Part shown: positions 1,460-59,537 of the stretch, piece after piece
How positions within the stretch are numbered: position 1 is the stretch's first letter
Layout of the letters: every line of letters begins with the position of its first letter
Sequence record: PZ583738.1
DNA: 64,000 nt
Reading direction: 5' to 3' (one strand)
Source: a phage
Made by a program: the position numbers and the translations under genes
Notes under the pieces: model-generated
What the model saw: the letters and a program-made list of their open reading frames with translations, nothing else
Told to the model about the DNA's origin: nothing
Database searches by the model: none

Positions 1460-1755
1460 AAGCCTGTCGGGTTGTTAACAAATATCAATCCGACTTTGAT
1501 GTGAATATTCAACGGGGTACCATGTGGGGAAACCCATATAAAGATGGTACCCGAGAAGAAAACATAAAGAACTTTAAAGAATATTTCATAGCAAAGATTA
1601 AATCGGGCGAAATCAAAAGAGAACACCTTGAAACCCTTCGCGGAATGCGATTAGCTTGTACATGCAAACCAAAAGCATGTCATGGGGATATCATCGCTCT
1701 GGTCGTTAACAAACTTTTCAAAGACACCTTTTCGCTCGAGGATTTGGGCGCATAA
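1456..1755 (+). CDS. hypothetical protein, DUF4326-like (WGNPY ... CTCKPKACHGD motifs); nrdA.2 position
   Basis: 99-aa ORF; motif pattern recalled for DUF4326; synteny between td and nrdA. Confidence 0.6.
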   Translation: MKACRVVNKYQSDFDVNIQRGTMWGNPYKDGTREENIKNFKEYFIAKIKSGEIKREHLETLRGMRLACTCKPKACHGDIIALVVNKLFKDTFSLEDLGA

Positions 1756-1763
1756 ATACGATT

Positions 1764-1788
1764 CCGCTTCAGGGCACTGTGATATAAT
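1764..1788 (+). promoter_or_regulatory. middle-type promoter (partial MotA box CGCTTCA, ~11-nt spacer, TATAAT)
   Basis: Sequence read directly; upstream of ORF 1815; coordinates +/-2. Confidence 0.4.
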
Positions 1789-1814
1789 TATTTAAAATTT
1801 AATGAGAGGAAATT

Positions 1815-2060
1815 ATGAATTTACGATTTAAACGCCAGTCAGGCGAAGTCATTTTTGAAATGCCACAATTTACCGAACAGGATTTACCTGCACCAAATTC
1901 TTATATCACTATTGACGGAATCAAATTTCTGGCCAAACGACATGAACGTGTCTACTGTCATGATTCAGCCGGTGACGTCCAGTCATATTTTGACATCACT
2001 GTCCAGTCAGAAGAAGAATATAATGATGAAATGACTTCGGAACTACCAGAGACAATTTAA
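1815..2060 (+). CDS. hypothetical protein (nrdA.1 position)
   Basis: 81-aa ORF with GAGAGGA RBS and upstream promoter-like element; synteny. Confidence 0.55.
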   Translation: MNLRFKRQSGEVIFEMPQFTEQDLPAPNSYITIDGIKFLAKRHERVYCHDSAGDVQSYFDITVQSEEEYNDEMTSELPETI

Positions 2061-2093
2061 GGTTCCCAACCCTTTTGAACTATAGAGGAAAAC

Positions 2094-4349
2094 ATGCAAG
2101 TACAAAAAAGTAGTGGTGTATCTCAAGATTTTGATGGCCAGAAAATTATTAAAGTTCTTTCCTGGTCATGTGAAGGAACTAATATCGACCCGTATGAATT
2201 ATACGAAACAATCAAACCACATCTGCGCGATGGCATGACTACTCGCGATATTCAGACGGTTATCATCAAAGTATCCGCTGGGCTTATTTCGGTTGAAGAA
2301 CCAGATTACCAATATGTTGCAGCCAAAGCTACGATGTTTGCTCTGCGTAAAGATGTTTATGGCCAGTTTGAGCCACGTTCTTTTATTGACCAGATTTCTT
2401 ATTGTGTTAATGAAGGTAAATATGACCCAGAGCTGTTGTCAAGCTACTCAGCTGAAGAGATTACTTACCTGGAATCTCGTATTAAGCACGAACGCGATTT
2501 TGACCTGACTTATGCAGGCGCGATGCAGCTTAAAGAGAAATACCTGGTTAAAGATAAAACCACTGGGAAAATCTATGAGACTCCACAGTTCGCTATCATG
2601 GCCATCGGCATGGCACTGCACCAGGATGAACCAACGGACCGTCTGAAGCACATTTGCCGTTTTTATGATGCAGTATCTACGCAGCAGATTTCGTTGCCCA
2701 CACCTATCATGGCGGGCGCCAGAACACCTACCCGACAGTTCAGTTCGTGTGTGGTTATCGAAGCTGCGGACTCCCTGAAGTCAATTAATAAGACTGCTAA
2801 TTCAATCATCGAATATATCAGCAAGCGTGCAGGTATTGGTATCAACGTTGGCATGATTCGTGCTGAAGGTTCGAAAATCGGTATGGGTGAAGTCAAGCAT
2901 ACTGGTGTTATTCCGTTCTGGAAACATTTCCAAACGGCTGTTAAATCATGTTCACAAGGTGGAATCCGTGGCGGCGCTGCTACTGCTTATTATCCTATTT
3001 GGCATTTGGAAGTTGAAAATTTACTCGTTCTGAAGAACAACAAGGGCGTTGAAGAAAACCGCATCAGACATATGGACTATGGTGTCCAGCTGAATAACCT
3101 GATGATGGAACGACTGGCTAAGAATGATTACATCACTCTGTTTAGTCCACACGAAGCTGGCAGTGAATTGTATTATTCATATTTTGATAACCCGGATAAA
3201 TTCCGCGAGTTATATGAAGCCTTAGAAAAAGACCCGACTGTTCGCAAGAAACGCATCAAAGCAAAAGATGTATTTGAATTATTCATGACCGAACGTTCCG
3301 GTACAGCCCGCGTTTATCCGCAGTTCGTTGATAACGTGAATGACTACACTCCGTTCATCCGTGACAAGGCTCCGATTCGTCAATCAAACCTTTGCTGTGA
3401 AATTGCAATCCCGACCACTGATGTAAACAGCGAAGATGCTGAAATCGGATTGTGCACGCTATCAGCATTTGTTCTGGATAGTTTTGACTGGCAGGACCAA
3501 GATAAGATTAACGAGCTGGCTGAAGTTCAAGTTCGTGCTCTTGATAACCTGTTGGACTATCAGGGTTATCCGGTTAAAGAAGCTCTGAAAGCCAAAAAAC
3601 GCCGCAACCTGGGTGTTGGGGTTACTAACTATGCTGCATGGTTGGCAAGCAATTTCGCTTCCTACGCTGATGCAAACGATTTAACGCATGAACTGTTCGA
3701 GAGATTACAATATGGCCTTATCCGAGCATCAATCAAGCTCGCCAAAGAAAAAGGACCTTGCGAATATTATTCAGACACTCGTTGGGCTCGAGGCGAATTA
3801 CCTATCGACTGGTACAATAAAAAGATTGACCAAATCGCAGCTCCAAACTACGTTTGTGACTGGGCGCAGTTGCGGGAAGACCTGGTTGAACATGGCATCC
3901 GTAATAGCACATTATCAGCACTTATGCCTTGTGAGTCATCTTCCCAAGTTTCTAACAGTACAAACGGTATCGAACCTCCGCGTGGACCAGTCTCTATTAA
4001 AGAGTCAAAAGAGGGTTCCTTTAATCAAGTCGTGCCCAATATTGAGCACAATAAAGGATTGTACGATTACGCATGGGTGCTAGCTAAGCAAGGTAACAAA
4101 CCTTATCTGACCCAAGTCGCGATTATGTTGAAATGGATTTGTCAGTCAGCATCAGCCAATACATATTATGACCCGCAGAATTATCCGAAAGGAAAAGTTC
4201 CGATGTCAGTTATGCTTGACGACTTGATGTACAGTTGGTATTTTGGTCTCAAGAATTTATATTATCATAATTCTCGTGATGGTTCTGGTCAAGATGATTA
4301 CGAAATTGAAGTTCCAAAAGCAGATGATTGCTCGGCATGTAAACTGTAA
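2094..4349 (+). CDS. nrdA: aerobic ribonucleoside-diphosphate reductase large subunit
   Basis: 751-aa ORF; class Ia RNR alpha features (ATP-cone N-terminus, C-terminal CSACKL-type tail); colinear with T4 NrdA. Confidence 0.96.
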   Translation: MQVQKSSGVSQDFDGQKIIKVLSWSCEGTNIDPYELYETIKPHLRDGMTTRDIQTVIIKVSAGLISVEEPDYQYVAAKATMFALRKDVYGQFEPRSFIDQISYCVNEGKYDPELLSSYSAEEITYLESRIKHERDFDLTYAGAMQLKEKYLVKDKTTGKIYETPQFAIMAIGMALHQDEPTDRLKHICRFYDAVSTQQISLPTPIMAGARTPTRQFSSCVVIEAADSLKSINKTANSIIEYISKRAGIGINVGMIRAEGSKIGMGEVKHTGVIPFWKHFQTAVKSCSQGGIRGGAATAYYPIWHLEVENLLVLKNNKGVEENRIRHMDYGVQLNNLMMERLAKNDYITLFSPHEAGSELYYSYFDNPDKFRELYEALEKDPTVRKKRIKAKDVFELFMTERSGTARVYPQFVDNVNDYTPFIRDKAPIRQSNLCCEIAIPTTDVNSEDAEIGLCTLSAFVLDSFDWQDQDKINELAEVQVRALDNLLDYQGYPVKEALKAKKRRNLGVGVTNYAAWLASNFASYADANDLTHELFERLQYGLIRASIKLAKEKGPCEYYSDTRWARGELPIDWYNKKIDQIAAPNYVCDWAQLREDLVEHGIRNSTLSALMPCESSSQVSNSTNGIEPPRGPVSIKESKEGSFNQVVPNIEHNKGLYDYAWVLAKQGNKPYLTQVAIMLKWICQSASANTYYDPQNYPKGKVPMSVMLDDLMYSWYFGLKNLYYHNSRDGSGQDDYEIEVPKADDCSACKL

Positions 4350-15213: not shown

Positions 15214-15237
15214 GGGACTCTTCGGAGTCCCTTTTTT
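15214..15237 (+). terminator. intrinsic terminator GGGACTC-TTCG-GAGTCCC-T6
   Basis: Perfect 7-bp GC-rich stem, tetraloop, T6. Confidence 0.8.
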
Positions 15238-15252
15238 ATTTTCCATAAAGGG

Positions 15253-15282
15253 GTTTACAACAGGGTTTGACCAGTGCATAAT
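15253..15282 (+). promoter_or_regulatory. early promoter (GTTTAC -35, 18-nt spacer, CATAAT -10)
   Basis: Upstream of ORF 15326; shares a 22-nt block with the promoter at 37118. Confidence 0.6.
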
Positions 15283-15325
15283 GATTCCATACTGAGTTGC
15301 ACATTAAACAAATGAGGAAAATACT

Positions 15326-15613
15326 ATGTTTATGACTACTTACTTTGATACACGCAAAAATTTCTGTGAAGTTGTTTTCTCTAAAAAAGGCCCTAATGTT
15401 CCTGCTGGGTGTGAACCAACTAAAGAATCCATTAAAAACTATGTGGATATAGTTTGCCCAGTTGAATTCAGGACTGTTAATGGACGTGATACGCTGGCAA
15501 TCACCAAGCTTCGCCGTGACATTGATATTGACCCAATTGCAGCACGTGAAATTAATTCGTCTGATATTAATGGCGGTAATGTTAAATCACACGGTTTCCA
15601 GATGAGGTTCTAA
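15326..15613 (+). CDS. hypothetical protein (30.x array)
   Basis: 95-aa ORF with GAGGAAAA RBS downstream of early promoter. Confidence 0.55.
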   Translation: MFMTTYFDTRKNFCEVVFSKKGPNVPAGCEPTKESIKNYVDIVCPVEFRTVNGRDTLAITKLRRDIDIDPIAAREINSSDINGGNVKSHGFQMRF

Positions 15614-21303: not shown

Positions 21304-21594
21304 ATGAAATCATCTTTTCGCTTTAATGGTCAGGAACTGGTAGTTGAGAATGTTATCCCGGCTTCAGAAGAGTTTGACAGCGCGGTAGGTAATGAACTGC
21401 GGCGAGTGTTTGGCGAAGATAAGAAGTTTGACCTTCGCCCTGTTGAAAACTTTGTAAATTCTGAACAAACAGAAAATATTTTTAATGGTGTAGTAACTGG
21501 ACAACTTGAATCTGAAGCACCAATTGCAATTACAGTCTTTGTTAAGAAAGAAGCTGTCATGACTGCAGCAGGTTTCATTTCATTCCGCAAATAA
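21304..21594 (+). CDS. hypothetical protein (alt.-x position)
   Basis: 97 aa from ATG with GAGGAAAA RBS after an early promoter; followed by bidirectional terminator. Confidence 0.55.
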   Translation: MKSSFRFNGQELVVENVIPASEEFDSAVGNELRRVFGEDKKFDLRPVENFVNSEQTENIFNGVVTGQLESEAPIAITVFVKKEAVMTAAGFISFRK

Positions 21595-21598
21595 AAAA

Positions 21599-21620
21599 GG
21601 GACCTTCGGGTCCCTTTCTT
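21599..21620. terminator. bidirectional terminator GGGACC-TTCG-GGTCCC flanked by A-run and T-run
   Basis: Between convergent ORF 21304 (plus) and gene 54 (minus). Confidence 0.8.
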
Positions 21621-21621
21621 T

Positions 21622-22581
21622 TTATAATATACGTTGACTTCCACCGGAGATTGTTCTCCCAGAACCAGTGAACGTATTGTATAGACTTGTTAACCCAGAT
21701 TGAGCACCAGACAAGCGACTCAATTTGGCAACTTCTGAGTTCAAGTTGTTATCTGAACTAATACCAGATACACCCTTAATAACCTTATCTTCCAACCATT
21801 CCAATGCCGCAGCTCTTCCCACCGCACCAGTTGACATAACGCGATAAGCAAAAGTCACATCAAATGTAGCTATCTGATTATCCCCTTCATAGCTCAATTC
21901 AGGCGCTGATACACTTACAGGAACACAACCAGTTAACATAACAACCGTATGCGGTAACCCATTACGCGAATGAAGGTTAACCTGAATATCAGCTTCAACG
22001 TCTTCAGGCAAGGCCCTTAGCTGGGTAACTGGGTCCTGTACAGAGTTGACCCAATCGTTAAATGCTCTAAAGTTCCCTGCCTCTGAATCCATTCTAAAAC
22101 TCAATACCAACGGAGAATATTCTCTCCCGGTTATCTTGATATTTGGTGCATTATGGTTAAGGTCCATTTCGTAGTTCAATGTGTTATCTGGAAGCTTAAC
22201 AGAGTGAACTAATAGACCAGCCGTTGGATAAGCCATATTAAAGAAATCAAGCAGGTAAGTACCAACCTCAAATTCCCCTAATAACGATTGCACAACACGG
22301 TTACTCATTGCCCCGATAAGATATTTGCTTATCCCTGATTTGCGAATAAGCTTTTGTGTCCCGGCAGTAACAAGAGTTGTTATCCCCTGAGTTAAGTCAC
22401 CTTGAGTTAATCCGAACCAATCTGAGTTAACAGGAAGGTTACTGAATAATGCGCCGCCGAACTGGTCCAGAAGATTCTGAGATTTGGAGGAAGGCGTGGT
22501 CGCGAAGACCACACTAAAAAGGTTATTCCTCTGCAAGTCGATATTAATCGCTTGTGTTTGAAATTCTTGTAAAGTAAACAT
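21622..22581 (-). CDS. 54: baseplate tail-tube initiator gp54
   Basis: 319 aa; strong colinearity with T4 gp54 (RNNLFSVVFATTPS...GITTLVTAGTQKLIRKSG...). Confidence 0.93.
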   Translation of the reverse strand: MFTLQEFQTQAINIDLQRNNLFSVVFATTPSSKSQNLLDQFGGALFSNLPVNSDWFGLTQGDLTQGITTLVTAGTQKLIRKSGISKYLIGAMSNRVVQSLLGEFEVGTYLLDFFNMAYPTAGLLVHSVKLPDNTLNYEMDLNHNAPNIKITGREYSPLVLSFRMDSEAGNFRAFNDWVNSVQDPVTQLRALPEDVEADIQVNLHSRNGLPHTVVMLTGCVPVSVSAPELSYEGDNQIATFDVTFAYRVMSTGAVGRAAALEWLEDKVIKGVSGISSDNNLNSEVAKLSRLSGAQSGLTSLYNTFTGSGRTISGGSQRIL

Positions 22582-33203: not shown

Positions 33204-34052
33204 ATGGCTTATACCGTAACTATTGCTCCTTTGGCGGCTACGGCCGTTATTGGAGCAACAACCAATTTCACTGCGACCGGTTCCGGTGCTGCAGCTGAAG
33301 GTACCGAATCATTTGTCTGGACCGTTGATGGCGTTCCTCAATCTTCTGTGACTGCTGCAATGGATTATGTTGCTGTTGGTCCAGCAGGCAGTAAGACTAT
33401 TAAAGTTGTTGCAACAACTACACCAGCGGACGGCGAACCAGAAACAGCTGAAGCCGAAACAACTTTAACTATCCAGAATAAAACAATGTCTGGTGTTTCT
33501 GTGACATTAACCCCAGAATCAATTAATGTTCCGGAAGACACCCTAGCTTCATTTAAAGCAGATGTAGTTGGCGCACCGAGTGGAGCTACTTTTGCCTATT
33601 CATGGAAGAAAGACGGTTCTCCTGTAGTTGGCACCACGGATACTCTAGCAATCGATACAAGCACCGAAGGTTCCCAGGTAATTGAAGTTTCTGTTGTTGT
33701 ATCTGCGACTGATTATAACCCTGTAACCGTTACAAAAACTGGTAATGTAACAGTCACGGCTAAAGTAGCTCCTGAACCAGAGGGCGAACTACCTTACGTT
33801 CATCCGCTGCCAGTTCGTAATTCAGCTTATATCTGGTGTGGTTGGTGGGTTATGGACGAAATTCAGAAAATGACTCTTGCTGGGCAAGACTGGAAAACTG
33901 ATGCTCCAGATAGCCCGTATTATTTGCACCGATATACACTTCAAAAAATGATTACCGACTATCCAGAGGTTGATGTACAGGAATCTCGTAATGGTCGAAT
34001 TATTCATCGCACCGCTTTAGAAGCTGGTATTATATACGATTACGTTTATTAA
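33204..34052 (+). CDS. hoc: Hoc outer capsid decoration protein (two Ig-like domains plus capsid-binding C-terminus)
   Basis: C-terminal ~110 aa (TATDYNPVTVTKTGNVTVTAKVAPEPEGELPYVHPLP...WCGWWVMDEIQKMT...YYLHRYTLQKM) matches T4 Hoc; Thr/Val-rich Ig-like repeats upstream. Confidence 0.88.
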   Translation: MAYTVTIAPLAATAVIGATTNFTATGSGAAAEGTESFVWTVDGVPQSSVTAAMDYVAVGPAGSKTIKVVATTTPADGEPETAEAETTLTIQNKTMSGVSVTLTPESINVPEDTLASFKADVVGAPSGATFAYSWKKDGSPVVGTTDTLAIDTSTEGSQVIEVSVVVSATDYNPVTVTKTGNVTVTAKVAPEPEGELPYVHPLPVRNSAYIWCGWWVMDEIQKMTLAGQDWKTDAPDSPYYLHRYTLQKMITDYPEVDVQESRNGRIIHRTALEAGIIYDYVY

Positions 34053-34059
34053 TTAAAAA

Positions 34060-34084
34060 GGGACCTTCGGGTCCCTTTGTTTTT
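34060..34084 (+). terminator. intrinsic terminator GGGACC-TTCG-GGTCCC-TTTGTTTTT after hoc
   Basis: Same stem sequence as 21599. Confidence 0.8.
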
Positions 34085-34121
34085 ATGGTACTGTACAAAC
34101 GTCGCCTGGCATAAAAACCCT

Positions 34122-34763: not shown

Positions 34764-35771
34764 ATGTTTAAGAAATACAACAGCCTTGAAAATCACTATA
34801 ACAACAAGTTCATTGAAAAGATTCGCCTGCAAGGCTTCACCAGCGGTGAATGGGTAGCTCGCGAGAAGATTCATGGTACCAACTTTTCATTAATCATTGA
34901 ACAAGACAATGTGACATGTGCGAAACGCACTGGACCTATCCTGCCTGCAGAAGATTTCTATGGTTATGAAATTGTATTAAAGAATTATGCTGATTCTATT
35001 AAATCTGTGCAGAAACTTTTGCAGGATATTAATTACCAGGCATACCAGATTTATGGTGAGTTTGCCGGGGCAGGTATCCAGAAGAATGTGGATTACGGTG
35101 ATAAAGATTTTTATGTATTTGATATCCGCGTTACTAAAGAAGATGGTTTTGAATCCGTCCTGACTGACACCTTGATGGAAGCATTCTGTATTATCCATAA
35201 GTTTAAGGTTGCACCGCGCCTGGCTACAGGTAGTTTTGAAGAATTAATTAAGCTCCCTAATGACCTGGATTCTGTTGTCCCTGATTACAATTTTACAGTG
35301 GATAACGCAGGTTTGACTACAGCAAATACCACTGATTTTGATGCAAAGGCGGAAGGTAAAGTATTCACTGCTGAAGGATTTGTATTAAAACCTGATGTTC
35401 CTGCATGGTTACCTAACGGCGAGCGTGTAGCGATTAAATGTAAGAACTCTAAATTCAGTGAAAAGAAAAAGTCTGATAAGCCTATTAAGGCTGCAGTGGT
35501 TCTGAGCCAAAATGATATGGATTTACTGTGGAATTTCACTGATTATGTGACTGTTAACCGTATCAACAATGTTATCAGTAAAATTGGGGAAGTAACACCG
35601 AAGGATTTTGGAAAGGTAATGGGGTTAACAGTCCAAGATATTCTGGAAGAAGCGGGGCGCGAAGGTCTTGAATTATCCCTGACGGAAAATCCTGTTGAAG
35701 TTAAAAAGCAACTCATCACAAATGTAAGAGAAACATTAAGACATGTTTGGATTGCATTAGTTAGTGAATAA
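34764..35771 (+). CDS. rnlB: RNA ligase 2
   Basis: 335 aa; nucleotidyltransferase motif (KIHGTNFS) and near-colinear identity to T4 Rnl2 ([13 protein letters not shown]...). Confidence 0.95.
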
Positions 35772-35778
35772 AAATAAA

Positions 35779-35799
35779 GGGACCCGAAGGTCCCTTTTT
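35779..35799. terminator. bidirectional terminator GGGACC-CGAA-GGTCCC between rnlB and gene 24
   Basis: A-run upstream, T5 downstream. Confidence 0.8.
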
Positions 35800-37078
35800 A
35801 ATTTATTTCAGTCAGAACTTTAGGAAGTTTCACACCAAGCAGTACAGACATATCTGAACGTCCTGCCATCAAATCCATATTTGTTGCATCAATAATACGA
35901 GCTTGTTTATCATCAGCAGTCACTGTATAAGGGTTAGCTGCTAACGCATAACGAACCATTAATGCAATAGACGGCTGCAAACTTTCTGGGTCAACGACAA
36001 CTTTGAACGAACCAACATGTTCAGGGTCTTCCAGGTCAAGACCTTCGGTATAAGGTGCATAAAACAGTGAACCCACCATCTCTTTCCCACCGAAATCTTC
36101 TTTAACACCAACAGTCACATAATCAAATGGAGTGTTCGTATCACAATAAAGCGGTAGACCATTATCCAAGAAACCATACGCATTATCGGAGAGATATTTC
36201 TCATCTTGTGGACGATGCTTCAACCAACCGGAACCAGCCAAAACTGCAGCTACACGCGTAGAAGCAACAACGTATGTTGCGGTGTAAGAAGTTGCCCGCT
36301 GAATATGGGAGACCATCTCACACATGATTTCGTACAACTTGCGTGAAGCTTCCGGAGAGTTAGTATAAGACAGGTCAATCAGGCCATCATCACAGAGCCC
36401 AGCAACTTTATAACGCTTGGAAACTGTTACCAGGGATTGCAGGATATCTTTGTTAATTTCATCAGCCATTTCGGTAGCTAACAGGTCTTCCAGGAAGTTT
36501 GGAGCGTCAAAACCGTTTGCTTCCAGGTCCTGGGCCAGTTCCACTGTAACAGTGCTTTTCAGCTTACGAGATTTAACCGGAGCATTCCATTTGTTAACCA
36601 AAAATTTAGCTTCGGCAATTTCGACTTCCTGTGGTCCTTCAAAACGTTCGGTGATTGCAGCTTCGGACATAATACGGATGGTCAATTTAACCATCGCTTC
36701 TTGAAGCTGGTCATACTCATCGCCCGTTGCTCCAGCAAATGGAGTTGCTACCAGCGCTTTATAAACTACATTTTCAAACTGGAACAAATCGTCTTTAGCA
36801 TAAACTGCGCCAGCAACAAAAACCGGAATGGTCGCACGGTCTTTTGCTGATACTGCACCAGAATAGGTTGCACCAGTCTGGAAAGATAATTCATCTTGCT
36901 GAGTCAGGTATTTAAGACCGTATAATGCCGCCAGTGGCTGGGATGTGCGCTGTTGTGCTACTAAATCGGTGTAAATCAGTTTAGTCGTAGCTCTGGTTAA
37001 AGCTACTAGATTCGGTCGACCAATCGAAGAACTTGTGGTCGTGGTCGACTCTTTTAAGAGTTCGTTAATTTTAGCCAT
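35798..37078 (-). CDS. 24: head vertex protein gp24
   Basis: 426 aa with gp23-like fold signature; position; TATAAATA ~26 nt upstream. Confidence 0.95.
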   Translation of the reverse strand: MAKINELLKESTTTTSSSIGRPNLVALTRATTKLIYTDLVAQQRTSQPLAALYGLKYLTQQDELSFQTGATYSGAVSAKDRATIPVFVAGAVYAKDDLFQFENVVYKALVATPFAGATGDEYDQLQEAMVKLTIRIMSEAAITERFEGPQEVEIAEAKFLVNKWNAPVKSRKLKSTVTVELAQDLEANGFDAPNFLEDLLATEMADEINKDILQSLVTVSKRYKVAGLCDDGLIDLSYTNSPEASRKLYEIMCEMVSHIQRATSYTATYVVASTRVAAVLAGSGWLKHRPQDEKYLSDNAYGFLDNGLPLYCDTNTPFDYVTVGVKEDFGGKEMVGSLFYAPYTEGLDLEDPEHVGSFKVVVDPESLQPSIALMVRYALAANPYTVTADDKQARIIDATNMDLMAGRSDMSVLLGVKLPKVLTEIN

Positions 37079-37103
37079 TGCTATTTCCTTTTGTGATATA
37101 CTT

Positions 37104-37111
37104 TATTTATA
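37104..37111 (-). promoter_or_regulatory. late promoter TATAAATA for gene 24
   Basis: Exact octamer on minus strand ~26 nt upstream of gene 24 ATG. Confidence 0.7.
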
Positions 37112-37117
37112 AAAGTT

Positions 37118-37147
37118 GTTTACAACCAGATTAAGATAAGACATAAT
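37118..37147 (+). promoter_or_regulatory. early promoter (GTTTAC -35, 18-nt spacer, CATAAT -10)
   Basis: Adjacent and divergent to the gene 24 late promoter; upstream of ORF 37189. Confidence 0.6.
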
Positions 37148-37188
37148 GATTCCATACTGAGTTAACAAACAAAACCTGGAGTTTAAAA

Positions 37189-37470
37189 ATGAACAAAGCA
37201 ACTTTCCTTCTGAACACCTTTAAAAATCTGGAAATTGAAGTTATTGCCTTGGTCAACAAATACCCAAATGGTGTTAATGGTAATGCTCTGAACAAACTAG
37301 TTAAAAAATATGAAAACTTAGCATATGACACTGATTTCTGGTGGAATGGTAATTATTCTACTCACACTAAAGATAAAAATGGTAACTGGTTGAAACTTCA
37401 AGAAAACAATGTTAACTTCAGAGACCTCATCAAGCGCCGGGTAGAAGTTCATTTAAATGGTATGGTATGA
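37189..37470 (+). CDS. hypothetical protein (early cassette between genes 24 and 23)
   Basis: 93-aa ORF with own early promoter and bidirectional terminator, opposite in orientation to the flanking late genes. Confidence 0.55.
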   Translation: MNKATFLLNTFKNLEIEVIALVNKYPNGVNGNALNKLVKKYENLAYDTDFWWNGNYSTHTKDKNGNWLKLQENNVNFRDLIKRRVEVHLNGMV

Positions 37471-37480
37471 AAACAAGAAA

Positions 37481-37502
37481 GGGACCTCAAGGGTCCCTTT
37501 TT
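37481..37502. terminator. bidirectional terminator GGGACC-TCAAG-GGTCCC between ORF 37189 and gene 23
   Basis: T5 downstream; A-rich upstream. Confidence 0.75.
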
Positions 37503-37520
37503 ATTTAACTTAATCTAGGA

Positions 37521-39080
37521 TTAAATTCCTTTAACATATACGCGGCGGAAGTAACCGTTCAAGCCAAGGCTGTTAACGATGTCCGGCATGCCGTTCTGAA
37601 TGCGCTTGGTCGGAGCCTGAGCAGCAGGGTCAGCAAACGGGTTGATACCGATACCGTAACGGGTTTTGAAGCCCATAACCGGCTGGAAGTTTTTCGGGTC
37701 AGAACCACGCAGCGGGGTCAGTGCAACATATGGTGCGTAGTAGATACCAGCATCCATTTCGTTAGCGCCTTTGTAACCGATGGTGAAGTAATCTGCACGA
37801 GCATACTGGTCGATATAGACACGGTATTTGCCACCCAGAACACCAGCGAACACAGCTTTAGTGGTGTCAACGTTGAAACCTTTACCCAGACCCTGAGCAG
37901 CATAACTAACAGAAGTATCAACAGCAGCCAGCACGTTAACTACGTTACGGGAAGCGATGATGAAGTTACCTGCACCACGACCGGTCTGACGAGCGATTTC
38001 AGCGGCTTCTTTATCAATCTGGAACAGTAAAGCTTTGAAGCTTTCACCAGCCCAACGAGCACCACGGATATCAATTGGGTCCTGGAAGTCAAACACACCA
38101 GCTTTAGCGCCAACGGTGTTGGTCATACCAGATTTACCAACCTGTGCGGAGTAGTTAATCCAATCGATAACTTCGCGGTTGATTTCCAGCATAATTTCGG
38201 TAGCCAGAATACCACTCAATTCGGCATCAGCATCCATACCGTGAACAGCGCGGAGGTCCTGTGCCAGTTCGATGGAGTAGCTTGCTTTCAGCTGACGGGA
38301 TTTAGCTTCGATAACTTGTTTGTCGATGCGGAAGCCCATTTCGTTCCACGGGTTATCAGAGGAACCGTTAAAACCTTCTTGCAGTTCGGCGATGGAGGTA
38401 GCCATACCTTCAGCCAGTTCAGCCAGCTGACCAGCTTCCAACAGAGCGGTTACAGCGGCATCCAGTTTAGCAGCATCAGTAGCAGCAGCATCAACAGTTA
38501 CAGCTTCAACAGCCTGGAAGTGTGCGGAACCTGTTGCTTCAAAGAAGTGAGAATAAATTTTACCAACTTCCAGAACTTTGCTTGCAGCCAGTGCTTCAAA
38601 AGTCTTAGCAGCGCCCTGACCAGAGAACATAGCGTTCGGAGCATACATCGGATGGAAAGCTTCTTTAGCACCAGCAGCGACAGGGTCTTTACCGTAAACT
38701 GCACGCAGGGCAAATACCTGGCCAGTCGGGTTGTTCAGAGGCTGTACGCCGCAAATATCAAACGCAATCAGATGCGGGATAGCACGACGAACCATACCCA
38801 TAACTGCCGGCCCAATCTGAGTTACTGCACCAGAGGTCTGGCCGGCAGCAATATTGGTAGCATCATAACCATGGTCACCACCGATTTCAGCTTCGGTCAG
38901 GAAAGAACCAAATGCTTCAGAGATTTTTTCGTCACGGTATTCAGGAGCGGTCAGAATATCTTGTTCCTGGTTTTCAAAGATTTTAGCGATGATAGCTTGT
39001 TTAGAAGCACCAACGATTTCAGGAAGAGCTTCGTTTTCCAGCAGAGCGGACCATTTTTGAACTAATGCATTCTTTTTCAT
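37521..39080 (-). CDS. 23: major capsid protein gp23
   Basis: 519 aa; long identical blocks with T4 gp23 (QAIIAKIFENQE, FGSFLTEAEIGGDHGY, ILATEIMLEINREV, GMTNTVGAKAGVFDFQDPIDIRGARWAGESFKALLFQIDKEA). Confidence 0.98.
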   Translation of the reverse strand: MKKNALVQKWSALLENEALPEIVGASKQAIIAKIFENQEQDILTAPEYRDEKISEAFGSFLTEAEIGGDHGYDATNIAAGQTSGAVTQIGPAVMGMVRRAIPHLIAFDICGVQPLNNPTGQVFALRAVYGKDPVAAGAKEAFHPMYAPNAMFSGQGAAKTFEALAASKVLEVGKIYSHFFEATGSAHFQAVEAVTVDAAATDAAKLDAAVTALLEAGQLAELAEGMATSIAELQEGFNGSSDNPWNEMGFRIDKQVIEAKSRQLKASYSIELAQDLRAVHGMDADAELSGILATEIMLEINREVIDWINYSAQVGKSGMTNTVGAKAGVFDFQDPIDIRGARWAGESFKALLFQIDKEAAEIARQTGRGAGNFIIASRNVVNVLAAVDTSVSYAAQGLGKGFNVDTTKAVFAGVLGGKYRVYIDQYARADYFTIGYKGANEMDAGIYYAPYVALTPLRGSDPKNFQPVMGFKTRYGIGINPFADPAAQAPTKRIQNGMPDIVNSLGLNGYFRRVYVKGI

Positions 39081-39101: not shown

Positions 39102-39920
39102 TTAAGAAATTCGTGATGCTGCGAGAGCAGACAAGTCCGCGAAGGACAGGGTAGGCTTGGCGCCTTTTTCTTCAACTGCTTCTGAAATGTAATTCAGTGC
39201 CGCAGCATCGTCTACATTTTTATTTATAGCGGCTTCGGTGATTGGTTTGTCGGTGGGTTCTACCTGACCTTTAACCATTTCAACGATAGCGCCAATTTTG
39301 GTACCGAATGCATCAGAGTATTCCATGCCTTCTACCAGAGAACCAACTTTTTCTTTCTGAGATTCAGTCAGGTCTTTAGTTGCTTCAGTCAACGCAACTT
39401 CACGTTGGACATAATTGATATAAGCATCACGCTTAGAAACTTCTTCGAACAGGTTAGCGGTTTCTTCTTTCTGTTCAGCCAGTTCTTCCTGCATTTCTGC
39501 AACAACATCAACAGATTCTTCCGGAACAACAACGTTGTGCTCAACGAACAGTTCTTTCATGCTGGTGAACATGGATTCGAACAGGTCAGCTTTAATGCCA
39601 CGGTCGACAGCCAGTTTATTTTCAGCAAGCCATTCTTTAGCAACGTGGTCCAGGAATTTAGCTGCAGATTCTTTCAGTTTTTTCTCTGCTTTTTCGTCGG
39701 ATTCTTCTTTATTCTTTTCGACTTCTTCTTCAGCTTTTTCAGCGATGGCGTGAATGTGAGATTCTGCCAGTTTGATGGCGTGTTGCTTGACGGTAGCTTC
39801 GAATACAGTGCCGAAGGTAGCTTTCGCTTCCGGGGACAAATTAACTGATTCGAAAATACTATCGAGAGCAACGGAAGCATCGATATTCTGAGCTTCGGCA
39901 ATGAGTTGTTCTTTAAGCAT
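39102..39920 (-). CDS. 22: prohead core scaffold protein gp22
   Basis: 272-aa Glu/Lys-rich coiled-coil protein; matches T4 gp22 N-terminus (MLKEQLIAEAQ.IDASVALDSIFESV). Confidence 0.93.
   Translation of the reverse strand: MLKEQLIAEAQNIDASVALDSIFESVNLSPEAKATFGTVFEATVKQHAIKLAESHIHAIAEKAEEEVEKNKEESDEKAEKKLKESAAKFLDHVAKEWLAENKLAVDRGIKADLFESMFTSMKELFVEHNVVVPEESVDVVAEMQEELAEQKEETANLFEEVSKRDAYINYVQREVALTEATKDLTESQKEKVGSLVEGMEYSDAFGTKIGAIVEMVKGQVEPTDKPITEAAINKNVDDAAALNYISEAVEEKGAKPTLSFADLSALAASRIS
39220..39227 (-). promoter_or_regulatory. late promoter TATAAATA (within gene 22 3' region) for gene 23
   Basis: Exact octamer on minus strand ~140 nt upstream of gene 23 ATG. Confidence 0.5.
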
Positions 39921-39949: not shown

Positions 39950-39957
39950 TATTTATA
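39950..39957 (-). promoter_or_regulatory. late promoter TATAAATA for gene 22
   Basis: Exact octamer overlapping the gene 21 stop, ~30 nt upstream of gene 22 ATG. Confidence 0.65.
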
Positions 39958-40591
39958 ACGTCTTTAAAGCCTCTGCGAGAGCCATAAAGGCGTCATCGGC
40001 ACTGGTATCGGCAACAGCCGTTTGTGATTCTGTAATCTGCTTTGGTTTGACCCAAGCGTCCGGAGCACTTGGCCCCCATACTGCGTCTACTCCAACCGTC
40101 AATTTAAAACCTTCATTAACGATGCTATAACCTTTTGCTGATTTAGTCAGGGAACCAAGTCCACGACTAGATACACCAGGAATCCAACCTGCTCTTATAT
40201 TTGCAGCAAGTTTATCACCTGGACCATGGTCGCCTTCGATAATACGCGCGCGGCCATATACATCATTCCCTTTCCACCACATTTCCTCGATAATAATTGC
40301 CGCCTGCATAGGGTCAACGTTTGCACGAGGTGGATGGTTTAATTCTCCAAGAGACTGCTTGGTTTCAACCTGTTCGGCGATATAGTCCGCAACGGCTTTT
40401 TCCAAAATATGTTTAGGATAAAGTCGTTTATTACGGTTAACAACTTCAGCTTGTAGGAAAATACCTTCAATATAAAGTCCTGGCTTTAAACCGCTGCTGG
40501 AACCATCATGAGATTCCAACATCGGTACACCATCTTTAATTTCGCCCGGTTGACCCCAGTGTTCGATTAGTAACTCTGGTTTCTGTTCCAT
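39953..40591 (-). CDS. 21: prohead protease gp21
   Basis: 212 aa; ELNHPPRANVDPMQAAIIIE.MWWKGNDVYGRAR.IEGDHGPGDKLAANIRAGWIPGVSSRGLGS matches T4 gp21. Confidence 0.96.
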   Translation of the reverse strand: MEQKPELLIEHWGQPGEIKDGVPMLESHDGSSSGLKPGLYIEGIFLQAEVVNRNKRLYPKHILEKAVADYIAEQVETKQSLGELNHPPRANVDPMQAAIIIEEMWWKGNDVYGRARIIEGDHGPGDKLAANIRAGWIPGVSSRGLGSLTKSAKGYSIVNEGFKLTVGVDAVWGPSAPDAWVKPKQITESQTAVADTSADDAFMALAEALKTL

Positions 40592-58503: not shown

Positions 58504-58508
58504 GAATA

Positions 58509-58533
58509 AAAAAGGGACCCGAAGGTCCCTTGT
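58509..58533 (-). terminator. terminator GGGACC-CGAA-GGTCCC after gene 8
   Basis: On minus strand followed by T6, then the gene 9 late promoter. Confidence 0.8.
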
Positions 58534-59537
58534 TAGAATTCAAAAATAATGTTAACTTCTTCTGTCTGGTCCATTGCACGAATAATCGGTGGGCGGTTTT
58601 CCATATAAATCATTTCCCCGGAATGACGGTCCAAATCAATTGCATCGTAGTATTCTTTGATTGCTTTGATATTTGGGTCATTAGGATGTACTTTAACTTC
58701 AAGTGGGTTGGATATAATCGACAGCTGGCGGAAGCCTTTGTTCCCTGGAAGACTGAACTCTGGGAAATAAATGGAATCCATAAATGCTTTAAATCTGATT
58801 GTATATCCTTTGATTCTGTATATTAAACCGAAATCATCTTGTTGCCAGCTGATATTGTCTTTGTAACCCCAACGTGATGGGTCTTCTTCAATTTCTTCAG
58901 GCCATGGAACAACAATATATTCGTTAGTACAACGGTTGATGGATACATCAGGTGGAATCTCATACAAATATTCCCAGAGATAACCATCGCCCATATCGAC
59001 TCGTCCTTCTGTATCACCAGTCCCAGCTGGAGCTCTCGTCGAGTTATATTCAGCAGTCCATTTACCACCGAGTTTTAAACACTCTTCTTTATTGATAATA
59101 GAATAAATGGAGCAAGTCCCAACATCAGGAACGTCTACACAACGATAAACCATCCAACCTTTACCAACATCAGTTCGGTTATACGGAGCACTGTTAGCTA
59201 CAACAATTTCCCCTACCTGGAAGTTAAGCGGATTGGGATATCTGATATCGCCCCAGTCTTTACGTGGGACAACACAATCAAGCATTGACTTATAAACTTT
59301 GACTGCACCCATCATATTTGTCCAAGTATCTTCAACACCTTGTGCTGTGTCAACCGGATAAGGAGGGGCGAACCCCGGGTCATTCTCATTCGAAGCCCAG
59401 GGTTCAGCACGACCGAACGTTACATACATCGTATTCTGGTCGGGCTCATTACCAATCATTTTATAAAAGTTATACATTTTTTCAGTTCGAAATTTCGAGG
59501 TAATTATCGAACGATAAACTACAGATGAATTATTCAT
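58533..59537 (-). CDS. 8: baseplate wedge protein gp8
   Basis: 334 aa; near-colinear with T4 gp8 (YRSIITSKFRTEKM.NFY, RCTNEYIVVPWPEE, GFRQLSIISNPLE). Confidence 0.95.
   Translation of the reverse strand: MNNSSVVYRSIITSKFRTEKMYNFYKMIGNEPDQNTMYVTFGRAEPWASNENDPGFAPPYPVDTAQGVEDTWTNMMGAVKVYKSMLDCVVPRKDWGDIRYPNPLNFQVGEIVVANSAPYNRTDVGKGWMVYRCVDVPDVGTCSIYSIINKEECLKLGGKWTAEYNSTRAPAGTGDTEGRVDMGDGYLWEYLYEIPPDVSINRCTNEYIVVPWPEEIEEDPSRWGYKDNISWQQDDFGLIYRIKGYTIRFKAFMDSIYFPEFSLPGNKGFRQLSIISNPLEVKVHPNDPNIKAIKEYYDAIDLDRHSGEMIYMENRPPIIRAMDQTEEVNIIFEF

What the first reader, a model, noticed from the sequence alone, without database searches (positions are those of the whole stretch)
37116..37506. Early-expressed cassette inserted in opposite orientation between late genes 24 and 23
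ORF 37189..37470 (93 aa, no recognisable motifs) has its own GTTTAC early promoter, sits back-to-back with the gene 24 late promoter, and ends in a bidirectional terminator. The arrangement resembles the promoter-ORF-stemloop modules described in T4-type genomes. T4 itself, as I recall, carries a different insertion in this neighbourhood.
Basis: partly seen in the sequence, partly recalled or inferred. Interest (0 to 1): 0.35.

Follow-up and report, generated by a model that had tools for sequence, protein, structure and literature searches.

The report
Swappable early gene between capsid genes
A small gene of unknown function, with what look like its own early promoter and terminator, sits backwards between two capsid genes of a T4-like phage, in a gap that relatives leave empty or fill with a homing-endonuclease gene; this is an ordinary kind of phage accessory cassette.

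Summary
The window is a Gaprivervirus (100% identical to phage DK-13 and 99.6% to SP18 over window 36900-37700). Between late genes 24 and 23 (both on the - strand) lies a + strand unit. It has a T4-type early promoter (GTTTAC 37118, CATAAT 37142), a GGAG ribosome-binding site, a 93-codon ORF (37189-37470) and a hairpin predicted to terminate on both strands (37476-37502). The gene 24 late promoter TATAAATA lies 6 bp away on the other strand.

The ORF is a real gene: it matches PHROG 6003 (E 3.6e-47) and has dN/dS 0.06-0.36. It has no Pfam, NCBIfam, PADLOC, PDB or fold match, even with a confident model (pLDDT 88).

Comparison shows a polymorphic slot:
- Empty in T2, in many other Tequatrovirus records, and in four more distant genera sampled.
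- segD alone in T4 and in Gaprivervirus TH15.
- This ORF family in Gaprivervirus, Dhakavirus, Mosigvirus and a few Tequatrovirus.
- ORF plus segD in tandem in F2 and UP19.

ORF and flanking-gene similarities disagree in W143, F2 and SQ17, so the cassette has been exchanged between genera. It is not a full PeSL, because no stem-loop precedes the promoter. Early expression and the protein's function are inferred, not shown. This is a new member of a known kind, of low to moderate interest.

The parts
35798..37078 (-). Gene 24 (head vertex protein), left flank of the slot
   Evidence: 426-aa ORF, annotated gp24 in SP18.
37104..37111 (-). Late promoter TATAAATA of gene 24. It also lies in the A/T-rich -40 to -60 (UP-element) position of the divergent early promoter.
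   Evidence: Motif scan. Conserved as TATTTATAAA in the window, TH15, MX01, W143, PhAPEC2, T4 and T2. The UP-element role is inferred from the T4 early promoter description in PMC2988021.
37118..37147 (+). Sigma-70/T4-type early promoter: -35 GTTTAC(A), 17-nt spacer after TTTACA, -10 CATAAT
   Evidence: 10 of 12 positions. One of 4 such motifs in the window, all on the + strand, against 0.45 expected. The position is conserved in five other phages. It matches the PST/T4 PeSL promoter consensus TTTACW-N17-TAYWAT (PMC4122927) except for C at the first -10 base.
37142..37163 (+). -10 element plus start of the leader, an exact 22-nt copy of 15277-15298 (another early promoter in the window)
   Evidence: 0.00 matches expected by chance.
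37178..37181 (+). Shine-Dalgarno GGAG, 7 nt upstream of the ATG; a possible RegB target
   Evidence: Sequence. GGAG is retained in MX01, W143, PhAPEC2 and TH15. The RegB motif is described in PMC3014915; cleavage here is inferred.
37189..37470 (+). 93-aa ORF of the PHROG 6003 family (SP18gp189; records annotate relatives as similar to JS98 gp173 and RB69ORF188c; VR7ORF190c). Basic (pI 9.4), 18% Asn, predicted helix-helix-beta hairpin-helix fold.
   Evidence: dN/dS; composition; model pLDDT 88, pTM 0.73.
37476..37502 (.). Hairpin predicted to terminate on both strands, ending the ORF transcript (+) and the gene 23 late transcript (-). It belongs to a repeated AAAGGGACC-loop-GGTCCCTTT hairpin family.
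   Evidence: family D1: 21590, 34051, 35770, 37472, 58505.
37521..39080 (-). Gene 23 (major head protein), right flank of the slot
   Evidence: 519-aa ORF, annotated gp23 in SP18.

Best explanation
This is a self-contained accessory transcription unit in a variable slot between two conserved, essential late genes.

Shown from sequence and comparison:
- A T4-type early promoter faces away from gene 24. It lies 6 bp from gene 24's late promoter, which sits on the other strand.
- It is followed by a GGAG ribosome-binding site and a 93-codon gene under purifying selection.
- A single hairpin, predicted to terminate on both strands, lies between the ORF and the end of gene 23.
- The slot has at least four states among close relatives: empty, this ORF, segD, and ORF plus segD in tandem.
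- The cassette's sequence similarities disagree with those of its flanks in several phages, so it has been exchanged between T-even genera.

Inferred:
- Host RNA polymerase transcribes the unit immediately after infection. The terminator keeps that transcript from running antisense into gene 23.
- The A/T-rich late promoter of gene 24 doubles as the UP element of the early promoter.
- Exchange occurs by ordinary homologous recombination during co-infection. The conserved gene 24 5' end, late promoter and -35 block serve on one side, and the terminator and gene 23 3' end on the other. Breaks made by SegD may add to this where segD is present.
- The product is a small basic protein with no detectable relative of known function. 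It most likely binds a host or phage macromolecule early in infection as a dispensable host-takeover or counter-defence factor.
For: Anatomy.

Coding and selection:
- PHROG 6003 match, E 3.6e-47 over the full profile.
- dN/dS 0.06 (MX01 vs W143), 0.16 (window vs W143) and 0.36 (window vs PhAPEC2).

Slot states:
- Empty in T2; about half of the evenly spaced rows have the same 322-bp span.
- Empty in Kanagawavirus, Jiaodavirus, Muldoonvirus and Slopekvirus.
- segD alone in T4 and in Gaprivervirus TH15, whose protein is 72% identical to T4 SegD.
- This ORF family in the same slot in SP18, MX01, PhAPEC2, W143, SQ17 and metagenomic contigs.
- ORF plus segD in tandem, 3 nt apart, in F2 and UP19.

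Exchange between genera:
- W143's flanks are 98% identical in nucleotides to T4. Its ORF is 88% nt and 92% aa identical to Dhakavirus MX01, whose flanks are only 64-78% identical to W143's.
- F2's gene 24 and gene 23 are 96% and 95% identical to Mosigvirus PhAPEC2. Its ORF is 94% identical to MX01's and 56% to PhAPEC2's.
- Mosigvirus SQ17 carries an ORF 97% identical to MX01's.

Junctions: the window and TH15 are identical up to GTTTACA and diverge after it. T2's empty site breaks directly after TATTTATA.

Composition: ORF GC is 33.7%, against 43.6% and 48.9% in genes 24 and 23.

Accessory early context elsewhere: family members in rV5-like phages sit in arrays of small same-strand ORFs.
Against: - No transcript or protein data were available, so timing and termination are motif-based.
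- The -10 element is CATAAT, without the TGn element typical of strong T4 early promoters.
- The ORF sits in the same slot in three genera, and its divergence roughly tracks theirs (62% aa to Dhakavirus, 36% to Mosigvirus). Much of its history is therefore vertical rather than mobile.
- The recombination junctions differ between pairs of phages, so no single exchange mechanism is demonstrated.
- The proposed function has no positive evidence. Pfam, NCBIfam, PADLOC, a PDB sequence profile and Foldseek (PDB twice, BFVD once) gave nothing beyond family members.
Confidence: 0.72

Rival explanations
1. The ORF is an old, vertically inherited resident of the T-even lineage rather than an inserted or mobile cassette. 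The empty and segD-only states are secondary losses.
For: It sits in the same slot and orientation in Gaprivervirus, Dhakavirus and Mosigvirus. Its amino-acid identity falls in the same order as that of gp23 and gp24: Dhakavirus is closer to the window than Mosigvirus. The promoter frame TATTTATAAA..GTTTAC is shared even by T4.
Against: The slot is empty in four more distant genera and in T2 and many Tequatrovirus records. The ORF and flank similarities are clearly discordant in W143, F2 and SQ17. Relatives also occur in rV5-like phages in an unrelated context.
Confidence: 0.2
2. It is a genuine PeSL-bounded module that moves by recombination between repeated promoter/stem-loop elements, through mini-circle excision and integration as proposed by Arbiol et al. 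2010 and Comeau et al. 2014.
For: - The promoter fits the PST/T4 PeSL consensus (PMC4122927).
- Its -10/leader is an exact 22-nt copy of the promoter at 15253, which is itself preceded by a terminator hairpin and so forms a full PeSL.
- The terminator belongs to a repeated hairpin family.
- The window/TH15 junction falls exactly at the -35 element.
Against: - No stem-loop lies upstream of the promoter: -7.5 kcal/mol, z -1.2, with gene 24's start and late promoter there instead.
- No early promoter follows the terminator, so the ORF is not flanked by two direct PeSLs.
- The F2/PhAPEC2 junction lies in the gene 24 5' leader, not in the promoter.
Confidence: 0.15
3. The cassette is functionally tied to the homing endonuclease SegD. 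The ORF allele is either SegD's natural target site or a partner gene, and it spreads by co-conversion with segD.
For: The ORF and segD form a tandem operon-like pair, 3 nt apart, under one promoter and one terminator in F2, UP19 and many other records. segD is inserted exactly between the ORF stop codon and the terminator. The F2 and UP19 segD genes are 96% identical in nucleotides although the backbones are about 80% identical.
Against: Most carriers, including this window, have the ORF without segD. T4 and TH15 have segD without the ORF. W143 acquired a Dhakavirus-type ORF without segD. No nuclease or DNA-binding signature was found in the ORF.
Confidence: 0.15
4. The unit matters as DNA or RNA, for example as a spacer or insulator between the gene 23 terminator and the gene 24 promoter or as an antisense regulator, and the ORF is incidental.
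For: The shared promoter and terminator frame is more conserved than the ORF itself.
Against: There is strong purifying selection on the protein (dN/dS 0.06-0.36). The start codon, ribosome-binding site and length are conserved across about 30-60% identical homologues. The fold prediction is confident. The slot functions when empty (T2). No Rfam family reaches threshold.
Confidence: 0.03

Closest known systems
Hypothetical-protein family PHROG 6003 (RB69ORF188c, JS98 gp173, VR7ORF190c, SP18gp189)
   Same: Full-length HMM match (E 3.6e-47) and 100% identity to SP18gp189. Same slot, strand, and promoter and terminator frame.
   Different: Nothing differs: this is that gene. The family has no assigned function, and no paper in the searchable library discusses it (the ORF188c hits concern other phages).
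PeSL (promoter-early stem-loop) cassettes of T4-type phages (Arbiol 2010, PMC2839356; Comeau 2014, PMC4122927)
   Same: Early promoter of the TTTACW-N17-TAYWAT type followed by a ribosome-binding site and ATG. The promoter/leader and the hairpin motif are repeated in the genome. The unit lies at an insertion/deletion/replacement site between close relatives.
   Different: No stem-loop directly upstream of the promoter, and no second PeSL downstream. It lies inside a conserved structural-gene block rather than in a hyperplastic region.
T4 segD locus (free-standing GIY-YIG homing endonuclease between genes 23 and 24)
   Same: Identical slot, opposite-strand orientation, aligned promoter-like sequence and downstream terminator.
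   Different: The occupant here is an unrelated 93-aa protein with no nuclease motif. In some phages the two genes sit in tandem.
Morons of tailed phages (autonomous promoter-gene-terminator units absent from close relatives)
   Same: Own promoter and terminator, presence/absence polymorphism, and lower GC than the neighbouring genes (33.7% against 43.6-48.9%).
   Different: Morons were defined in temperate phages and are expressed from the prophage. This unit is in a strictly lytic phage and is predicted to be expressed early in infection.

Membership tests
PHROG 6003 / RB69ORF188c-JS98 gp173 family | Full-length sequence similarity to the family profile | tested here: met
   E 3.6e-47, residues 1-90 on profile positions 1-90 of 90. 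tblastn finds 238 phage records.
PHROG 6003 / RB69ORF188c-JS98 gp173 family | Position between genes 23 and 24 on the opposite strand | tested here: met
   SP18, MX01, PhAPEC2, W143, SQ17 and metagenomic contigs L013-L015. Exceptions are the rV5-like phages.
PeSL cassette (Arbiol 2010; Comeau 2014) | Sigma-70-like early promoter of the clade's consensus (TTTACW-N17-TAYWAT for the T4/PST group) | tested here: met
   TTTACA-N17-CATAAT. The only deviation is C for T at the first -10 base.
PeSL cassette (Arbiol 2010; Comeau 2014) | [quoted passage not shown] | tested here: not met
   37056-37120 folds at only -7.5 kcal/mol, z -1.2. That stretch holds gene 24's start codon, ribosome-binding site and late promoter.
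PeSL cassette (Arbiol 2010; Comeau 2014) | Shine-Dalgarno sequence and start codon at the 3' end of the element | tested here: met
   GGAG at 37178-37181 and ATG at 37189.
PeSL cassette (Arbiol 2010; Comeau 2014) | The motif is repeated in the same genome, giving homology for recombination | tested here: met
   GTTTACAAC plus an exact 22-nt -10/leader copy at 15253-15298. Hairpin family D1 has 5 copies.
PeSL cassette (Arbiol 2010; Comeau 2014) | ORF bracketed by two PeSLs in direct orientation (needed for mini-circle excision) | tested here: not met
   Downstream of the terminator is the 3' end of gene 23 on the other strand, with no early promoter.
PeSL cassette (Arbiol 2010; Comeau 2014) | Association with an insertion, deletion or replacement between closely related phages | tested here: met
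   Window against TH15 within Gaprivervirus; T2, T4 and W143 within Tequatrovirus.
T4-type early transcription unit | Transcription by unmodified host RNA polymerase immediately after infection, independent of phage protein synthesis | not testable with these tools
   Only motif evidence is available: promoter, strand bias of the motif and a GGAG ribosome-binding site.
Free-standing homing endonuclease gene (seg/mob type) | GIY-YIG or HNH nuclease domain | tested here: not met
   No Pfam hit at E up to 10. The protein has only 93 aa. No fold match.
Moron (autonomous promoter-gene-terminator insertion) | Own promoter and terminator, absence from close relatives, and atypical base composition | tested here: met
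   Expression from a prophage, part of the original definition, does not apply to a lytic phage.

The most novel reading that the evidence does not exclude
The 93-aa protein has a confidently predicted fold with no detectable relative in the PDB. It could be a new early effector that disables a host function or an anti-phage defence. Its placement in a recombination-tolerant slot beside segD could be what lets it move between T-even genera, so that the 23-24 gap acts as a small exchange site for adaptive cargo driven partly by a homing endonuclease.
Probability: 0.3. Interest if true: 0.55.

Novelty: new member of a known kind. Interest (0 to 1): 0.25.

Why it matters
In practical terms it matters little. 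The gene is already annotated as a hypothetical protein in hundreds of T-even genomes, and accessory early cassettes and homing-endonuclease slots are familiar features of these phages.

Three modest points are worth keeping:
1. The 23-24 gap is a clean natural example of one slot with several interchangeable contents inside an otherwise conserved structural-gene block. It shows clear cross-genus swaps.
2. The ORF is an uncharacterised, selectively maintained early protein. Its predicted fold has no known relative, and it is carried by many phages related to those proposed for therapy, so it is a reasonable candidate for host-takeover or counter-defence screens.
3. The aligned promoter in T4 offers a testable explanation for how segD is transcribed.

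Tried and rejected
Function by homology gave nothing informative:
- Pfam found no family at E up to 10.
- NCBIfam and PADLOC gave nothing for the window protein, and only sub-threshold noise for relative P0009.
- A profile search against PDB sequences had a best E of 0.11, to designed helical proteins.
- Foldseek against the PDB with two models (pLDDT 77.8 and 88.0) had best E values of 0.097 and 1.1.
- Foldseek against BFVD found a single significant match, an unnamed 88-aa viral protein at 30% identity, probably a family member.
- The 5.8-billion-protein word search found 3 relatives. The profile search of 1.84 billion cluster representatives found 9 hits, of which six carry family-like sequence and the other three are weak, short matches in much longer proteins.

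Other checks that led nowhere:
- No Rfam family reaches threshold in 36900-37700.
- There is no paralogue of the ORF elsewhere in the window.
- Literature: no paper in the library discusses this ORF family. A phrase search for the 23-24 interval returned only irrelevant papers. The SegD paper by Sokolov et al. 2018 is not held, so SegD's cleavage site could not be compared with this slot.

Considered and rejected:
- A winged-helix reading of the N-terminal half (my first impression): no fold support.
- A MotA-dependent middle promoter: by inspection there is no TGCTT box at about -30.

It was rerun with permitted rows only.

Full report
**What the window is.** A megablast of 36900-37700 gives 100% identity to Escherichia phage DK-13 and 99.6% to Shigella phage SP18 (genus Gaprivervirus, Tevenvirinae). 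The T4 head genes lie on the - strand: 21 (39953-40591), 22 (39102-39920), 23 (37521-39080) and 24 (35798-37078). rnlB lies on the + strand at 34764-35771.

**Check of the observation.** The finding is accurate in every detail.
- The ORF at 37189-37470 (+, 93 aa) exists.
- The -35 element GTTTAC is at 37118-37123. The promoter scan reports TTTACA, a 17-nt spacer and CATAAT (37119-37147), matching 10 of 12 positions. This is the best site in 3.7 kb.
- My own motif scan (GTTTAC-N16-18-YAYWAT) finds four sites in 64 kb, all on the + strand, against 0.45 expected in shuffles.
- TATAAATA late-promoter boxes are on the - strand in 16 of 19 cases, including one at 37111-37104, 6 bp from GTTTAC. The divergent early/late promoter pair is therefore real.
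- GGAG lies 7 nt before the ATG.
- The hairpin at 37476-37502 is called as a terminator on both strands. It folds at -17.0 kcal/mol (+, z -4.0) and -15.9 kcal/mol (-, z -3.0).
- T4 carries segD on the opposite strand in the same interval.

**Is the ORF a gene?** Yes.
- It matches PHROG 6003 end to end (E 3.6e-47).
- It is annotated as a hypothetical protein in SP18 (gp189). The records describe it or its relatives as similar to JS98 gp173 and RB69ORF188c, and VR7 names it VR7ORF190c.
- tblastn finds it in 238 phage records.
- Pairwise Nei-Gojobori estimates give dN/dS of 0.06 (MX01 vs W143), 0.16 (window vs W143) and 0.36 (window vs PhAPEC2).
- It evolves much faster than its neighbours. Identity to Dhakavirus MX01 is 62% aa, against 92% for gp24 and 96% for gp23. 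Identity to Mosigvirus PhAPEC2 is 36%.
- It is basic (pI 9.4), 18% asparagine, and lower in GC (33.7%) than genes 24 and 23 (43.6% and 48.9%).

**What the protein is.** Nothing informative was found.
- Pfam, NCBIfam and PADLOC give nothing.
- A nine-sequence profile finds nothing in PDB sequences.
- The family is very small. There are three relatives in the 5.8-billion-protein word search. There are nine hits among 1.84 billion cluster representatives, of which six carry family-like sequence.
- AlphaFold2 with eight sequences gives a confident model: pLDDT 88, pTM 0.73, helix 3-24, helix 31-47, beta hairpin 52-71, helix 77-92.
- Foldseek finds no PDB match (best E 1.1).
- The invariant residues are M1, K3, F6, L21, N30, G31, N32, N35 and Q71.

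**Synteny of the 23-24 interval.** The slot has several states.
1. Empty, about 80-90 bp holding only the late promoter of gene 24 and a terminator hairpin. Examples are T2, two Kanagawavirus phages, Jiaodavirus JY1, Muldoonvirus WSPA and Slopekvirus VAC13. About half of the evenly spaced rows of the T4-query search show the same 322-bp span.
2. segD alone: T4, PST, ECML-134 and PhiZZ6 (53 records covering at least 80% of the T4 query). Gaprivervirus TH15 also has it, and its protein is 72% identical to T4 SegD.
3. The PHROG 6003 ORF alone: Gaprivervirus, Dhakavirus (MX01), Mosigvirus (PhAPEC2, SQ17), metagenomic T-even contigs and nine Tequatrovirus records like W143.
4. ORF plus segD in tandem on the same strand, 3 nt apart, under one promoter and one terminator: F2 and UP19, with the same annotation pattern in many other records.
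5. Other occupants further away. There are opposite-strand homing endonucleases in Tegunavirus phiR1-RT and Lazarusvirus Kimel, three tiny same-strand ORFs in Krischvirus GEC-3S, and 440 unannotated bases in Aes508.

The interval is thus an insertion hot spot, and empty is the likely ancestral state.

**The frame is conserved while the cargo changes.** I aligned the stretch from gene 24's start codon to the cargo ATG. The block TTTCCTT...TATTTATAAA(A)GTTGTTTACA is shared by the window, TH15, MX01, W143 and PhAPEC2, and by T4 with ATTTAC. The -10 elements also align: CATAAT, TATAAT, TACTAT and TATTAT. T2's empty site breaks immediately after TATTTATA and runs straight into the hairpin. The window and TH15 belong to the same genus. 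They are identical through GTTTACA and unrelated after it until about 7 bp before the end of gene 23.

**Horizontal exchange.**
- W143's partial gp23 and gp24 are 98% identical in nucleotides to T4. Its ORF is 88% nt and 92% aa identical to Dhakavirus MX01, whose flanks are only 64-78% identical to W143's.
- F2's gene 24 and gene 23 are 96% and 95% identical to Mosigvirus PhAPEC2. Its ORF is 94% identical to MX01's and 56% to PhAPEC2's own ORF.
- Mosigvirus SQ17 carries an MX01-type ORF at 97% identity.
- The segD genes of F2 and UP19 are 96% identical although the backbones are about 80% identical.

The cassette has therefore been swapped between genera several times. At the same time, its divergence among Gaprivervirus, Dhakavirus and Mosigvirus broadly follows the flanking genes, which indicates long residence in the slot.

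**Relation to PeSLs.** Comeau et al. define a PeSL as a stem-loop just upstream of a sigma-70-like early promoter, followed by a Shine-Dalgarno sequence and a start codon. The T4/PST promoter consensus is TTTACW-N17-TAYWAT. They propose recombination between repeated PeSLs, including mini-circle excision of ORFs bracketed by two of them (PMC4122927).

Features that fit:
- The promoter, ribosome-binding site and ATG.
- The -10 element plus leader, CATAATGATTCCATACTGAGTT (37142-37163), is an exact 22-nt copy of 15277-15298, with none expected by chance. That other promoter is preceded by a terminator hairpin, so it is a complete PeSL.
- The terminator belongs to a five-member family of near-identical hairpins.

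Features that do not fit:
- No stem-loop precedes the promoter at 37118.
- No early promoter follows the terminator.

The unit works like a PeSL-type cassette but fails two defining features, so I do not file it as one. Plain homologous recombination through the conserved flanks is sufficient to explain the swaps. It also fits the fact that junctions differ between pairs: at the -35 element for window/TH15, and in gene 24's 5' leader for F2/PhAPEC2.

**Most likely mode of action.**

Shown: the anatomy, selection on the protein, the slot polymorphism and the cross-genus exchange.

Inferred:
- Host RNA polymerase starts near 37154 right after infection.
- The A/T-rich block containing gene 24's late promoter lies where T4 early promoters carry UP elements (PMC2988021).
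- The GGAG ribosome-binding site is a possible RegB target, as in many T4 early mRNAs (PMC3014915).
- The shared hairpin stops early transcription from running antisense into gene 23, and also ends the gene 23 late mRNA.
- The protein is a dispensable early factor acting on a host or phage macromolecule. Dispensability follows from the viable empty-slot and segD-only relatives. The target is unknown.

**Verdict.** The gene itself is already catalogued as a hypothetical protein, and the kind of element is familiar. The useful additions are the four-state slot, the documented swaps, and a confidently modelled fold with no known relative. Interest is low to moderate.

Noticed in passing
window 15214-15330: A complete PeSL-type composite: terminator hairpin (15214-15240), GTTTAC early promoter (15253), ribosome-binding site and ATG (15326) heading a run of small + strand ORFs. 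Its -10/leader is an exact 22-nt copy of 37142-37163.
   Followed up: partly
L006 (T4 NC_000866) about 2745-2785, - strand: T4 has TTTACA-N17-(TGa)TATTAT upstream of segD, aligned with the early promoters of the other slot occupants. The review by Edgell et al. 2010 (PMC2988022) states that no segD-specific promoter could be identified. The TH15 segD orthologue has GTTTAC...TATAAT at the same place.
   Followed up: partly
L017 (phage F2) 1969-2898; L019 (UP19) 1526-2458: In many phages the ORF family and segD sit in tandem, 3 nt apart, sharing one promoter and one terminator. segD is inserted exactly between the ORF stop codon and the hairpin, and the last residues of the ORF are altered (RRVKIA to RRVKAA).
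   Followed up: partly
window 21590-21625, 34051-34086, 35770-35805, 37472-37507, 58505-58540: A family of near-identical terminator hairpins (AAAGGGACC-loop-GGTCCCTTT). Gene 24 is bracketed by two of them. T2's empty 23-24 site carries the stem and loop seen at 35779 (AAAGGGACCCGAAGGTCCCTT).
   Followed up: no
L022 (phiR1-RT), L023 (Kimel), L025 (GEC-3S), L024 (Aes508): The 23-24 interval is an insertion hot spot well beyond the T-evens. It holds large opposite-strand homing endonucleases in Tegunavirus and Lazarusvirus, three tiny same-strand ORFs between two terminators in Krischvirus, and 440 unannotated bases in Aes508.
   Followed up: no
L004 (Acinetobacter phage ABPH49, Vequintavirinae) 3001-3267; L016 4001-4264: Distant members of the ORF family (about 30% identity) occur outside T4-like phages. 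They sit inside arrays of small same-strand ORFs typical of early regions, which suggests the gene moves between unrelated lytic myoviruses.
   Followed up: partly
L019 (UP19) 1-1424; L020 (CUA3) 1-2083; L010 (Q7622) 1543-3146: Several relatives carry two tandem gene 24 paralogues, whereas the window has a single gene 24.
   Followed up: no
P0006 (160 aa, metagenomic protein): A 32-residue stretch nearly identical to the core of the ORF family (VKKYE..AYATDFWWNGEYSTHTKD) is fused to unrelated sequence. This is most likely an assembly or gene-calling chimera.
   Followed up: no
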